Source of the DNA: Octopus vulgaris | Taxonomy: Eukaryota | Assembly: GCA_951406725.2 (NCBI GenBank) | Contig: OX597821.1 | Span: 85,498,001 to 85,562,000 of the forward strand | DNA: 64,000 nt | Reading direction: 5' to 3' | Part shown: positions 24,020 to 46,295 of the stretch, one piece after another | How positions within the stretch are numbered: the first letter of the stretch is position 1 | Layout of the letters: each line of letters begins with the position of its first letter | Translations under genes and position numbers: made by a program | Notes under the pieces: model-generated | Database searches by the model: none | What the model was told of the DNA's origin: nothing | The model's input: the letters and a program-made list of their open reading frames with translations, nothing else

Positions 24020-24220
24020 AATGAAAACAATTGCAGCGTGGAAGGTGTTCACTGACAAAATTCCGTGCAGCACAGAATTTTGTCAGTGAACAGGTTGCAG
24101 TCTCAAAACAACGAAAATATTTTGGCAAATTAAATTTAAATGTTGAAGTGTATCTAACAGTTTTTGTGTGTTTCTTAAATGGCTAATAAACACCTTCCAT
24201 GCTGCAATCATATTTTCATT
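24020..24220. repeat. Fold-back (palindromic) element centred at 24069
   Basis: 23-bp arms TGTTCACTGACAAAATTC(C/T)GTGC around one base, plus an outer inverted pair ATTGCAGCGTGGAAGGTGTT (24030-24049) / AACACCTTCCATGCTGCAAT (24189-24208). Confidence 0.85.
24079..24129 (+). ncRNA. Minimal type I hammerhead ribozyme-like motif, G3:C8 variant
   Basis: TTTGTCA-GTGAACA-G-GTTG[CAGTCTCAAAA]CAAC-GAAA-ATAT-T-T-TGGCAAA: 7-bp stem I (one G:U), 4-bp stem II and a palindromic stem III loop. Confidence 0.65.
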
Positions 24221-24374
24221 TTTGCAGAAATAGGTTCCTTGCTTAAGGCCCAAGTATGACACTTGTAATGATTGAGTCAAATCTCTATTACCATAATCTT
24301 GATAACCTCATAAATATCTATAAAAAAAAAGTATAAAAACAAAACAGTTAATAAGGTTTTTTTTTAATATATCA

Positions 24375-24690
24375 AGGTGCAGGCATGGCTGTGTGGTTAA
24401 GAAGCTCGCTTTGCAACCACAGTTTTGGGTTGTCCCACTGTGTGGCACTTTGAGCAAGTGTTTTCTACTATAGCCCTGGGTTGAGCAATGCCTTGTGAGT
24501 GGCATTGGTAGATGGAAACTATATGGAAGCCCATTGTGCTTTTGTGCTTTAGTATTTGTCACCTCACCACTTGACAACTAGTGTTTGTTTGTTTGCATCT
24601 CCATAACTTAGCAGTTTAGCAAAAAAAAAAAAAAAATCAATACAGTAAGTAGCATGGTCTGATGATCAAAACAAAAAAAAGGTACTGGGA
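24375..24690 (+). mobile_element. Degenerate SINE family A
   Basis: ggtgcaggcatggctgtgtggttaag head, and a body colinear with other copies. Confidence 0.8.
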
Positions 24691-26009
24691 ATGAGTTCCC
24701 TTTCCTCTCTCAACAGCCAATTTGATCAGTTGCCGAAGAGGTGTCCAACCTGCTAAAAATGGCAACCAATTCGTCCTTAAGTTTAACATAACTGTCTTGA
24801 AAAGGGACACAATAAGCAATGTAGCCCTATATACACAATGCCTGCAGAGTGAACAGGAAGGCAATGGCTGAAATACTGTCATCATAGGTCTGCTAAGTGA
24901 AGGCGGACTGGGATCAAATTTGAGCATATTTGTACACTTGTTTTTAGGTAGAATAACACTACCAGGTATGAAGGAGACATCTGTGGAATTGACACTAGAA
25001 AGACACTTGCCCCCACCACCACCAACACAAATGGAAATACAAGCATAAAAATCTGAAAACCTGACCAAGATGAGCACAGGATTTCAACGTTTAACAATTA
25101 ACCTTAATTCACTGCCTGTTAACATTTTGCAAAATAAAAAGGAAAAGAGGAAAACAACTTGAGATTTTCGTGTAATCTTGATAATCTCAATCAATCTTTG
25201 TTGTTTAGGCCAGATACCTCAGTTGCCACACAGATTTAGTGAACATGCAGGTTCCCAACAAAAACAGTAGCTATCAATTTGAATGACCGTAAATACTTCA
25301 TCAGAATTAATTGCCAGCAATAAAGTAAATCACAATAATGATCATTACTTGGGAACAAGTCCAAATTGTATTAAATGTGGTGATTAGGCCAATGCTTTAA
25401 CCTTAAAACAATTAGACTTCTAGTTACGTTTAATTGGAATATAACTAATTTTTAGAATTATTTCTCTATTATACCTCCAGTTGTACTTGGCTAGAATAAA
25501 AGTTGTTTTTTTTTTAATTACTTATGACAACTTTTTGAAATAAACTGGGAATCTCTATGTAGCTGAACTATTAAACATAGCAACCAAATTTGTCAAAATC
25601 CACACTCCAATATCTAAAAAAAAAAACAAAAAAAAAAACAACCTCAAATACAAGTGAGTGTGAATCTTAAATACACTATGCTAAAATACAAGAGGGGATG
25701 GTCATGGTTTTGATCATAGGTTTGTTCAATCAGGGCTGGGATGAAATGAAAACAATAAGAATTTACTATTCTTCTATTTTCTATATTTTGCCAGTAACCT
25801 ATCCAAATTCCATACTTTTTCCCCCACGTAAAGCAGCAGTCTAATGCCCTAACACAGCTATGAGCAAACTGCAGCTTGCAGGACTTTCTGCATAGCATAC
25901 CTAATGAAAAACAACTTTCAATAGATACAAAATAAGTACATTTTTTTCTAGTTTTCTTTTGAGACTTGGACACATGACAATGGGAAGAAACGTTGGGGTT
26001 ATTGTATGT

Positions 26010-26233
26010 TTAACTCCTTAGCATTCAGATTACTTTGTCAAATGTAATGCTTATTTATTCACATCGTTTTGAATCAATCATGCATTATCTCATAGCTTCA
26101 AGATTTTGCCAATGTGACTATTTTTAAAAATGACATCATAGAGTAGGTGAGAGAGGCTGGTTCTAGTCAGTTTGAACATAAGACAGGTAGACTACTTGGC
26201 TGGATATGGTCAGTTTAAATGCTAAAGAGTTAA
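26010..26233. mobile_element. TTAA-flanked (piggyBac-type) MITE, second family
   Basis: TTAA-CTCCTTAGCATT ... AATGCTAAAGAG-TTAA. Confidence 0.8.
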
Positions 26234-26329
26234 ATGATATTCAGATCCAAGAATATTCCATTTCTATTATTGGAAAGGGCAGCACAGGTTCTTCACAATT
26301 CAAAGAGGTAACATAAGTATGCTTCAATT

Positions 26330-26575
26330 CTTTTATTTGTTTCAGTTATTTGACTGTGGCCATGCTGGAGCACTGCCTTAAGTTGAGCAAATTGACCCCA
26401 GGACTTATTCTTTGTAAGCCCAGTACTTATTCTATCAATCTCTCTTCCGAACTGCTATGTGACAGGGACGTAAACATACCAGCATCGGTTGTCAAGCGAT
26501 GTTGGGGGAACAAACACAGACACACAGACATATACATACATACACATACACACAGGTATATATATATATATATAT
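26330..26575 (-). mobile_element. SINE family A, 3' half
   Basis: tttgactgtggccatgctggagcactgcc... matches other copies. Confidence 0.85.
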
Positions 26576-27343
26576 AAGCTGAAGAGCTGTACCAAGTTCT
26601 AGTCTGATTTCGTATAGTTTCTATAGTTGGATGCCCTTCCTAACACTAACAACTGCATGAGTGTAGTGGGTACTTTCTACGTGCCACAGGCACTATTCCT
26701 CTAACCCATGCTAGCATAGAAAAACTGAAGTACTGTTTTACTGCAAGATGCTAAACTTTATCGATTCTTCATGTGCAAGATACCTTATTCCACATGCCTC
26801 CAAAGGCACAAAGCTAGTAGAGGATCAGTTGACAGGGGTAATGATAGCAATGTCACTGCCCATAGTTGAGTGATTTTCAGAGAAGTGCAAAAGCAGATGC
26901 CTCTTGTATGTATACATATATGCAAATGCACATGCATATATACCAGTGAAAATTGGTACATCAGGTTGTGGTTCTTTATGTCAAAAAAGGTGAAACCAAG
27001 GCACTTGAGAGAGATTGATGAAATAAATGTTAAACTAAAATAACCAAACTAAATATTGCATGCACCATCATGAACTAAGAGAGAAGAAAAACAAAACAAA
27101 ACACAAAAAAAAAAACTTGAAGATGGCACTAATAAACGATTACAAATAAATGTGTTTATTCATATGTAAAGTAAACAAGTTTACATTTCTGTACTATGGT
27201 TTCATTCAATGAGCTTTTTGGTTCGTGAATTGAGAAGGAATGACTAGCAATAACTAAATTGTGTGCAATGCATTAAGTGATTGTGTAGTTGTATAAGTCA
27301 TCTGTATTGATTGCTGTCATTGTATCAGAAAGTAACCAAATTA

Positions 27344-44682: not shown

Positions 44683-44718
44683 ATATATATATATATATAT
44701 ATATATATATAATATATA

Positions 44719-45276
44719 ACATCCCTGCTAAAGGGAGACCCAAAGATGAACCGGATCCTCGAAACACACACCATCATTAAAAGTAAACGGCAACCAAAAT
44801 CCTTGAAAAGGATTTTAACCCAAGCTAAACTGCACTCAACATCAACCACAAAACCAGCAGTTAGAAAATGTGGAAGGCCCAACTGCGGAATCTGTGTCAT
44901 CTTGGTAGAAGGTTCAGAATTTATACTAGAACAAGGCCATCAGTTCACCATTAGAGCAAACTTCACCTGCACATCAGAAAACTTAATTTACGTCTTAACA
45001 TGCGCAGACTGCAATAGGCAGTATATAGGCCATACAAAAAATAGCTTATGTAACAGGATGGCGGTGCATAAATCACAAATTAGAAACCCTGAATACCGGA
45101 AAATACCGGTCAGCGGACACATAGATAGATGTGCTGCAAATGTAAATCCGAAATTTACAACTTACCCACTTTATAAATTCAGTGACAGCGTAACCTTCAT
45201 GCAACGCCAAAATAAAGAACTTTATTTCATCAAAAAATTTAGACCAAGTTTGAACACCCTGGGCCAGGAATATTAA
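44719..45276 (+). CDS. Penelope-like element ORF C-terminus: Cys-rich linker plus GIY-YIG endonuclease (5'-truncated)
   Basis: RQPKSLKRIL, CGRPNCGIC, FTCTSENLIYVLTCADCNRQYIGHT, RMAVH, GH and KELYFIKKFRPSLN. There are no stops, and the frame is open back to the (TA)n junction. Confidence 0.9.
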   Translation, partial: TSLLKGDPKMNRILETHTIIKSKRQPKSLKRILTQAKLHSTSTTKPAVRKCGRPNCGICVILVEGSEFILEQGHQFTIRANFTCTSENLIYVLTCADCNRQYIGHTKNSLCNRMAVHKSQIRNPEYRKIPVSGHIDRCAANVNPKFTTYPLYKFSDSVTFMQRQNKELYFIKKFRPSLNTLGQEY

Positions 45277-45509
45277 AACAAAACATTGATCCTCCGAAAA
45301 AGAGAAACGAAATTCTACCACAACCACTACGACTGCCCCAACTTGCACTACTACTACAACCACCGTGGTCACTGTTGCTACGGCCACAGTGAGAGAATTA
45401 TAATAATGGAGGTGGGGCGAATTACAATTTCTCAGATCCTTAAACAGTCACTCACGCTGACAGTGATATGTCTTAGGGAAGGAAAAATTTATAAAAAGAT
45501 CTCTTTCTC

Positions 45510-45900
45510 TACGAGCAGATCTAATCCTGATTCGTCAAAAAACTGATGACGTATTACCTCAGTGGTCAAGCTATTGTCACCCTGCTTGGTCGGTTCCCCC
45601 ACACGATACAGCTATGGGTCAGACCCAATTCTGATTGGTCAAAACATTGATGACGTCTCGTTCTGCTGGACTAGCCACCTAACAGGATACAGTCATGGGT
45701 CAGATCTAATTCGTCAAAAAAATGTTGACGTATTTCTCCCGTGGCCAAACTGTCGTTCCACTTGGTTGGTTTCCTAACAGGATACAGTTAGGAGTCTTTT
45801 CACTATATTCGTTGAGACTGGGTTTTGATTGGTTTGGAACTATATGACGTCAGTGAAAAGTGCAAGTGACCACAGCTTAGCTGAACTGATATAAATCCAG
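45510..45900 (+). promoter_or_regulatory. Putative pseudo-LTR promoter of the Penelope-like element
   Basis: Three degenerate tandem units each with TGACGT; ATTGG at 45828-45832; palindromic TGACGTCA at 45845-45852; TATAAA at 45890-45895. Confidence 0.5.
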
Positions 45901-46015
45901 CAATCACAAAATTCACCAAAATTATGCGAGCAGACACCGATCAAAAATCATTACTGTTGCTCCCATTGGAACACAAGGTAAAATCTAAAATGAACTCCTC
46001 GCCTTTTCAAGAACA

Positions 46016-46245
46016 TGAATTTTTTATATTTGACTCTATTGAATGTATGTCACAATTATGAATTACTACATCATACTCTTTAAACATATAGCATGAACTC
46101 TCTTTATTATATATGATTTTTTTATATTTGACTCTATTGAATATTATATATGAATTTTTTATATTTGACTCTATTGAATATGTCACAATTATGAACTATT
46201 ACATCATACTCTTTAAACATATAGCATGGACTCTCTTTATTATAT
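46016..46245. repeat. Tandem duplication (~95-bp unit twice, with a partial unit between) in the pseudo-LTR
   Basis: tttttatatttgactctattgaa occurs three times; gtcacaattatgaa...ctctctttattatatat occurs twice. Confidence 0.9.
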
Positions 46246-46252
46246 ATAACTT

Positions 46253-46295
46253 TTTTTGATAAGGTTCGTGATTTCAAGAACCGAAACATGTTAAA
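46253..46295 (+). ncRNA. Minimal hammerhead ribozyme-like motif, U3:A8 variant
   Basis: TTT-TTGATAA-GGTTC[GTGATTTCAA]GAACC-GAAA-CATG-T-T-AAA; located in a PLE pseudo-LTR, where such motifs are known to occur. Confidence 0.7.

What the first reader, a model, noticed from the sequence alone, without database searches (positions are those of the whole stretch)
24079..46295. Three hammerhead-like motifs use three different 3:8 pairs, and the intact-looking ones are antisense to the host gene
Seen: cores GUGAACA (24086), CUGAUGA (27418) and UUGAUAA (46256) each keep 3:8 complementarity, a natural covariation that argues the motifs are real. The two complete motifs are on the plus strand. The copies that would lie in the RNF220 pre-mRNA are deleted or core-mutated. 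Inference: this may be a diversified cephalopod family of PLE-linked ribozyme elements, possibly with selection against self-cleavage of host introns. The sample is only three loci.
Basis: inference. Interest (0 to 1): 0.7.

Follow-up and report, generated by a model that had tools for sequence, protein, structure and literature searches.

The report
Penelope hammerheads with flipped core pair
The three motifs are leftover ends of three separate repeat families, two of them tied to Penelope-type jumping genes, and one family carries a hammerhead RNA, predicted to cut itself slowly if at all, whose central base pair is flipped (G-C instead of C-G) in over a thousand copies, while the idea that the host gene purges such motifs from its own strand found no support.

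Summary
46256 (U3:A8) ends a truncated RT + GIY-YIG Penelope-like element; U3:A8 is already published. 27418 (C3:G8) is an old palindromic copy broken on both strands. 24086 (G3:C8) is a short copy of the terminal repeat of a second, distant Penelope-like element, found here full length (pLTR-ORF-pLTR). G3:C8 holds in 94 of 100 listed of 1,613 exact matches. Sister families on the same scaffold keep C3:G8 and covary in all three stems, so the swap is a real compensated change; I found it in print only as an engineered, partly active mutant. Short copies keep the whole ribozyme and start at one upstream point, so their template was likely uncleaved RNA. The youngest sister has an A9C core. Orientation: intact copies lean antisense (28:46 by a skew proxy) no more than hammerhead-free repeats (24:36, 12:22), so ribozyme-specific purging is unsupported. 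Cleavage is untested. This scan noted G3:C8 Penelope hammerheads before, in this genome and in others.

The parts
3290..3416 (-). RNF220 coding exon (AG acceptor, GT donor); the motifs lie in the intron upstream of it
   Evidence: PF15926 over cut-off; splice sites read
23960..24068 (-). Family 1 inverted arm: 5' half of the hammerhead, an internal deletion that removes stem II and the rest, then ORF start and 'tail'
24066..24208 (+). Family 1 direct arm: short copy of the pLTR of a Penelope-like element, ending at the family's first 3' end
   Evidence: 83% identical to both pLTRs of full-length element L303; ends mapped
24079..24129 (+). Minimal type I hammerhead fold, G3:C8 core, bulged G after A9, 4-bp stem II (5 bp in most family copies), palindromic stem III, U17, 7-bp stem I; predicted cut 24122/24123
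24179..24208 (+). Remnant of the first codons of the element's ORF (ATG inside the pLTR)
   Evidence: translation of L303 and match to the sister ORF N-terminus
27342..27417 (-). Family 2 inverted arm; core CUGACAA (G8 to A at a CpG), stems decayed
27411..27552 (+). Family 2 direct arm; core CUGAUGA at 27418, GAAA broken, 10-nt palindromic stem III, C17; old repeat family, ORF partner not found
44713..45276 (+). 3' part of a PLE ORF: CX4CX2C linker and GIY-YIG endonuclease (5'-truncated family 3 element)
   Evidence: PF01541 E 4.9e-07; 92% to full-length L143
45277..46395 (+). Family 3 3' UTR and pLTR ending in (TA)n
46253..46295 (+). Minimal type I hammerhead fold, U3:A8 core at 46256, 5-bp stem II, palindromic stem III, U17, only 3 bp of stem I; predicted cut 46292/46293

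Best explanation
The motifs at 24086 and 46256 are the hammerhead folds of the terminal repeats of two distant Penelope-like retroelements (G3:C8 and U3:A8 cores), 27418 is a decayed C3:G8 copy of a third, likely Penelope-derived repeat, and all three are likely inert passengers of the RNF220 intron. In the G3:C8 element the fold sits just behind the likely transcription start and ahead of the ORF's ATG; reverse transcription is inferred to start at two sites inside the first codons and run to the RNA's 5' end, giving the thousands of 150-210-base copies such as 24086. These copies contain the whole ribozyme, so the template is inferred to be uncleaved RNA. The flipped pair is a compensated change in a conserved fold and likely leaves slow, dimer-dependent cleavage.
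For: Shown: full-length pLTR-ORF-pLTR with the G3:C8 fold in both pLTRs (L303); 1025-aa frame with RT motifs and GIY-YIG. G3:C8 in 94 of 100 listed of 1,613 matches, control 0; no other letter at 5% or more at positions 3 or 8 in four runs under four organism codes. Same scaffold without G3: 5,741 matches, control 0, 87 of 100 listed C3:G8; one of these families has an ORF 55% identical. Nine aligned copies: 8 of 15 pairs change on both sides, covariation score 0.335 against 0.208 shuffled, 0/500. U3:A8 in 99 of 100 listed of 151, downstream of a 781-aa RT + GIY-YIG ORF, in both pLTRs. Two 3' ends (50 and 70 of 137 arms), 42 of 137 5' ends within 8 bases of one boundary; 0 of 30 arms picked by a downstream pattern start at the cut site. 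Literature: PLE min-hammerhead traits and U3-A8 (PMC4209133); internal RT initiation, tail, C3G/G8C partly active, uncleaved RNA the main substrate (PMC11167929).
Against: No cleavage was measured. The youngest sister family has A9 changed to C (62 of 100 listed), 47 family-1 copies carry G8, 18 of 20 inspected as an unpaired G3.G8, at least two with G8 in both arms, and young family-3 elements have a G.U at 10.1-11.1 and an interrupted stem I: catalysis may be dispensable. The 5' boundary also looks like a splice acceptor (branch-like CTAAC, pyrimidines, AG; 400 copies). About half of the exact family-1 matches inspected (22 of 40) are passengers in a Helitron-like element, which inflates counts. 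The covariation test used 9 hand-picked related rows. No ORF partner was found for family 2.
Confidence: 0.75

Rival explanations
1. The fold is kept as a non-catalytic structure (protein-binding site or translational leader), and the core swaps are tolerated because cutting no longer matters or is selected against, since a cut would remove the cap from the ORF's RNA.
For: A9C in the youngest, very abundant sister family; G3.G8 copies were mobilised; no genomic 5' ends at the cut site; hammerhead mutants do not impair insertion in vitro in the anole element (PMC11167929).
Against: U4, G5, A6, G12, A13, A14, A15.1, U16.1 and G10.1-C11.1 are invariant across the 9 aligned copies and the 3:8 pair, a tertiary contact of the active fold, is restored rather than lost.
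Confidence: 0.3
2. One reading: intact copies are purged from the sense strand of introns because they would cut the pre-mRNA.
For: 2 of 2 intact motifs in 168 kb of RNF220 intron are antisense; pooled intact copies lean antisense 28:46, sign test p 0.047, and 19:36 on downstream flanks only, p 0.030. A preprint reports tandem retrozymes depleted from introns in Xenopus, without strand analysis in the parts read (10.64898/2026.07.22.740005).
Against: Hammerhead-free repeats lean the same way: SINE 24:36, mean -0.012; second repeat 12:22, mean -0.012; hammerhead copies mean -0.0115. The 40 ten-kb family-1 loci gave 23:17 the other way. 10 family-1 and 5 family-3 loci carry intact folds on both strands. 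Lone minimal hammerheads showed no cleavage in vitro (PMC4209133).
Confidence: 0.1
3. The sharp 5' boundary of the short copies is a splice acceptor, and short copies come from spliced RNA while long copies retain the intron.
For: Branch-like CTAAC, pyrimidine run and AG directly before the boundary in 400 exact copies; Penelope of D. virilis has an intron ending at helix I (PMC4209133, PMC8557442); several junctions share TGAG.
Against: Short copies share only 1-3 letters beyond the boundary (G at -1 in 28 of 33; G at -3 in 9 of 18 where the parent has C or T), too little for a first exon and as expected for a copied cap; no GT..AG joint in four runs (contigs only, weak).
Confidence: 0.2
4. 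The motifs are chance matches in AT-rich DNA.
For: The window copies fold no better than shuffles; Rfam gives no hit.
Against: 0 Watson-Crick descriptor hits in 20 shuffles of 264 kb; thousands of family copies with controls at 0; position in both pLTRs of intact elements.
Confidence: 0.01

Closest known systems
[quoted passage not shown]
   Same: Position in pLTRs, palindromic stem III, extra base between 9 and 10.1, G10.1-C11.1, frequent U17, mostly single dispersed copies, inverted pairs; U3-A8 variant reported in Schistosoma Cercyon.
   Different: No G3-C8 core in the parts seen; no octopus in the searched supplement; no A9C family mentioned in the parts seen.
Poseidon element PAc of Anolis (Frangieh et al. 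2024, PMC11167929; passages read)
   Same: Hammerhead in the pLTR at the ORF start, two RT start sites inside the ORF that define the tail, uncleaved RNA as main template; C3G/G8C double mutant partly active.
   Different: PAc is C3:G8 in nature, G3:C8 there is engineered; its ATG lies in stem II, here about 56 bases behind the cut site; elements here have the CX2-5CxxC linker of Neptune/Nematis type.
Natural hammerhead core variants (Perreault et al. 2011, PMC3088659; passages read)
   Same: 3:8 covariation seen in nature.
   Different: Reported as U3-A8 only in the passages seen.
Neptune/Nematis-type EN+ PLEs (Craig et al. 2021, PMC8557442; passages read)
   Same: RT plus C-terminal GIY-YIG, zinc-finger-like linker, tandem and inverted pLTRs, tail, (TA)n targets.
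   Different: Exact clade not tested; family 3 has a separate upstream 479-aa ORF; the family-1 tail is about 60 bases rather than 30-40.
Animal non-LTR retrozymes (Li et al. 2026, 10.64898/2026.07.22.740005; parts 1-2 of 5 read)
   Same: Short, non-coding, hammerhead-bearing, PLE-related.
   Different: Retrozymes are defined as tandem units; these copies are dispersed ends of autonomous elements.

Membership tests
Minimal type I hammerhead | Core NUGANNA ... GAAA ... UH with paired 3:8 | tested here: met
   24086 and 46256; family level. Not met by the 27418 copy on either strand.
Minimal type I hammerhead | Stems I, II and palindromic III, supported by compensatory changes | tested here: met
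   Family-1 clade; for the 46256 copy stem I is only 3 bp.
Minimal type I hammerhead | Canonical C3-G8 (or published U3-A8) identity | tested here: not met
   Family 1 is G3:C8: a variant.
Minimal type I hammerhead | Site-specific self-cleavage, as a dimer | not testable with these tools
   Only contigs were served; cofolding favoured swapped stems, not clearly the active dimer.
EN+ Penelope-like element | ORF with RT and C-terminal GIY-YIG | tested here: met
   Family 3: PF00078 and PF01541. Family 1: PF01541 over cut-off; RT seen by YVDD/DKSG motifs and alignment to family 3, PF00078 not hit on the partial ORFs scanned.
EN+ Penelope-like element | pLTRs flanking the ORF, hammerhead inside them | tested here: met
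   L303; L143.
EN+ Penelope-like element | Inverted 5' duplications, optional tail, (TA)n targets | tested here: met
EN+ Penelope-like element (family 2) | Link to an RT/EN ORF | tested here: inconclusive
   No tblastn hit of 9 PLE proteins within 1.5 kb of 20 copies; anatomy only.
Neptune or Nematis clade | CX2-5CxxC linker; placement in an RT tree | tested here: inconclusive
   Linker present in both ORFs; no reference set on hand for a tree.
Non-LTR retrozyme | Tandem non-coding units, each with a hammerhead, no ORF parent | tested here: not met
   Families 1 and 3 have autonomous parents; no head-to-tail short units seen in the loci read.

The most novel reading that the evidence does not exclude
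An autonomous animal retroelement lineage has naturally fixed the G3:C8 hammerhead core, so far known to me only as a weak rescue mutant, by way of a G3.G8 step still visible in the genome, while its youngest sister fixed A9C. Penelope elements would thus tune down a ribozyme that sits between their cap and their start codon, and the thousands of solo ends would be strong-stop-like copies of uncleaved, capped RNA.
Probability: 0.35. Interest if true: 0.7.

Novelty: new variant of a known kind. Interest (0 to 1): 0.5.

Why it matters
Standard hammerhead descriptors demand CUGANGA and miss G3:C8 families, so ribozyme inventories of animal genomes are undercounted. A clade of related elements with C3:G8/A9, C3:G8/C9 and G3:C8 on one scaffold is a ready-made natural series for the open question whether Penelope hammerheads need to cut at all. 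The locus itself, in the RNF220 intron, is probably of no consequence.

Tried and rejected
Rfam scan: no hammerhead model hit. Tandem family-1 copies at C1:67.34 Mb were a local segmental repeat without ORF. A PLE ORF near C1:72.946 Mb was unrelated to family 1. A first skew test on 3-kb loci showed family 3 at 2:13 antisense, 6:10 on 10-kb loci; leftover A-rich element sequence can bias it, and controls lean alike. In some searches duplicate loci, loci with intact folds on both strands (10 and 5), loci with under 700 unmasked bases (13 and 15) and, Helitron-borne copies (10:6) were left out. No RNA holder was listed for family 1; laid contigs showed no splice joint and no start or end pile-up, which contigs cannot show. 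Look-up of earlier notes by sequence found nothing, so I cannot tell whether those notes concern the same family. Papers not held: Przybilski and Hammann 2007, Lunse et al. 2017, Martick and Scott 2006; Lunse et al. and its supplements, supplementary file 1 of PMC4209133 and the bioRxiv supplements could hold a natural G3:C8 example. No RT tree with reference clades was built.
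Full report
Observation. The three cores are at the stated places on the + strand. The window is G000:C8:85498001-85562000 of a 2.8-Gb genome, likely an octopus (my recall from genome size and contig number, not from a call). An RNF220 exon lies at 3290-3416 on the minus strand (PF15926; splice sites), further exons lie 45-47 kb below the window, and a coding exon with the N-terminal motif I recall for RNF220 lies at C8:85621081-85621806 (no Pfam hit). All three motifs are therefore in one intron of about 120 kb, antisense when read on +. 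A strict descriptor found 4 hits in 264 kb (24086, 46256 and two non-Watson-Crick hits outside the intron) against 0.1 per shuffle, none Watson-Crick, in 20 shuffles.

Three families, not one. Each locus is a copy of a different dispersed repeat. Locus 46256 ends a 1.7-kb, 5'-truncated element whose first part encodes a GIY-YIG endonuclease. Full-length relatives have a 479-aa upstream ORF, a 781-aa RT + GIY-YIG ORF and the fold in both pLTRs. U3:A8 holds in 99 of 100 listed of 151 exact matches, control 0. U3-A8 is published for PLEs (PMC4209133, parts 1-2 read) and other natural hammerheads (PMC3088659, passages). Locus 27418 is a palindrome of two decayed arms of an old family with C3:G8, a 10-base palindromic stem III and C17. 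The + arm lacks one A of GAAA and the 5' strand of stem I; the minus arm has G8 to A at a CpG, a change that recurs in other copies. No ORF was found near 20 copies.

Locus 24086. The family matches a 27-letter pattern 1,613 times, control 0; 94 of 100 listed are G3:C8 and the other 6 are single changes. 22 of 40 inspected copies ride in a 2.15-kb element with Helitron-type ends (the end rule is recalled). Following copies that extend upstream (400 matches) led to the parent: a frame of 1025 aa with RT motifs, a CX3CX2C linker and GIY-YIG, and a full pLTR-ORF-pLTR copy with the G3:C8 fold in both repeats (L303). It shares only 21-28% identity with the family-3 protein in the aligned parts. Contigs of four runs under four organism codes show no other letter at 5% or more at positions 3 and 8 (reads had to be 85% alike).

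The swap is a compensated change. A pattern for the same scaffold without G3 gave 5,741 matches, control 0. Of 100 listed, 87 are C3:G8: 62 with C9, 22 with the canonical A9, 3 with U9; 13 are unpaired; none is U3:A8 (my count; one U3:A8 copy was seen elsewhere). The C9 family belongs to a 1312-aa element 55% identical to family 1. In nine aligned copies 8 of 15 pairs change on both sides, in all three stems and at 3:8; score 0.335 against 0.208, 0 of 500 shuffles, slid controls at most 0.146. The rows were hand-picked and related, so this is support, not a probability. 47 family-1 copies carry G8; 18 of 20 inspected are G3.G8, on mixed backgrounds, at least two with G8 in both arms and one with it in one arm only: relic intermediate and back-mutation cannot be told apart.

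How the short copies likely arise. The ATG lies about 56 bases behind the predicted cut, and both 3' ends (50 and 70 of 137 arms) fall in the first 31 codons, as in the anole element, where RT starts inside the ORF (PMC11167929, passages). 42 of 137 arms start within 8 bases of one point about 16 bases before stem I; none starts at the cut or one base either side, two start two bases before it (this set is biased towards copies with the 5' part). In the unbiased set 0 of 30 arms start at the cut, and the shown loose ends of two DNA-scale runs fall at the same boundaries (606 rows not shown). Short copies share only 1-3 letters beyond the boundary, with G at -3 in 9 of 18 where the parent has C or T. 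I infer a transcription start there and copying of uncleaved, capped RNA to its 5' end. A splice acceptor is the rival, since the upstream letters fit one and Penelope has an intron at that place (PMC4209133, PMC8557442).

Orientation. T-over-A skew marks the sense strand in RNF220 introns (9 of 10 masked pieces positive), so flank skew served as a proxy. Forty 10-kb family-1 loci gave 23:17 sense to antisense. Pooled intact, non-Helitron copies gave 16:24 and 12:22, together 28:46, p 0.047, mean -0.0115. Two hammerhead-free repeats in the same loci gave 24:36 and 12:22, mean -0.012 each. Fifteen loci carry intact folds on both strands. The lean is thus no larger than the baseline; a small extra effect cannot be excluded with this proxy, which also mixes in intergenic copies.

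Activity. Untested. Engineered C3G/G8C is only partly active (PMC11167929, PMC8495972, passages), and lone minimal hammerheads did not cleave in vitro (PMC4209133). The window copies fold no better than shuffles and have no nearby partner in the same orientation, so they are likely inert.

Novelty. Searches for a natural G3:C8 returned only engineered cases; three key papers were not held. Notes of this scan report G3:C8 Penelope hammerheads in this and other genomes; they prompted my search for sister families and are not independent support. Verdict: a new variant of a known kind; the element anatomy is firm, catalysis open, the intron-purging idea unsupported. Interest 0.5.

Noticed in passing
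L192 (G000:C1:53650800-53660799) and 21 more of L191-L230: A young 2.15-kb non-coding element with Helitron-type ends (5' TC, 3' hairpin and CTAG, between A and T) has captured a family-1 inverted pair and spread it; it accounts for about half of the exact matches inspected.
   Followed up: partly
L312-L320; 5,741-match scaffold: A very young, abundant sister PLE (1312-aa ORF with long Asn-rich insert) has fixed A9 to C in its hammerhead core and has a non-palindromic stem III; older relatives keep A9 and C17.
   Followed up: partly
L333-L352: Minority of family-1 copies with unpaired G3.G8, some with G8 in both arms of one insertion.
   Followed up: partly
L129, L195, L223, L318: A further U3:A8 hammerhead family, unrelated to family 3, with C17 and a 5-6 bp stem I showing paired changes.
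   Followed up: no
L328: A copy with C8, a 6-base loop II and different flanks: possibly a second G3:C8-type family.
   Followed up: no
L141-L149: Young family-3 elements have a 479-aa ORF overlapping the RT ORF, and many carry G.U at 10.1-11.1 and an interrupted stem I.
   Followed up: partly
G000:C1:72946193-72949000 (L233-L234): A divergent PLE ORF (YRDD, CxC-type linker), possibly Hydra-clade; no hammerhead core found in 3 kb downstream.
   Followed up: partly
window 28925-29089 (-): Weak U4 snRNA match (34.6 bits, gathering 46, E 4e-4): likely a pseudogene.
   Followed up: no
window 5123-5650 (-): C-terminal fragment of an RTE-like LINE ORF (weak DUF6451 hit; clade name recalled).
   Followed up: no
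window 57220-58228 with 60764-61713; 58922-59201 with 59619-59903: Large, 91-98% complementary inverted duplications in the intron.
   Followed up: no
window 32980-33106: Long GC-rich hairpin inside a common dispersed repeat; the Rfam miRNA hit is below gathering score.
   Followed up: no
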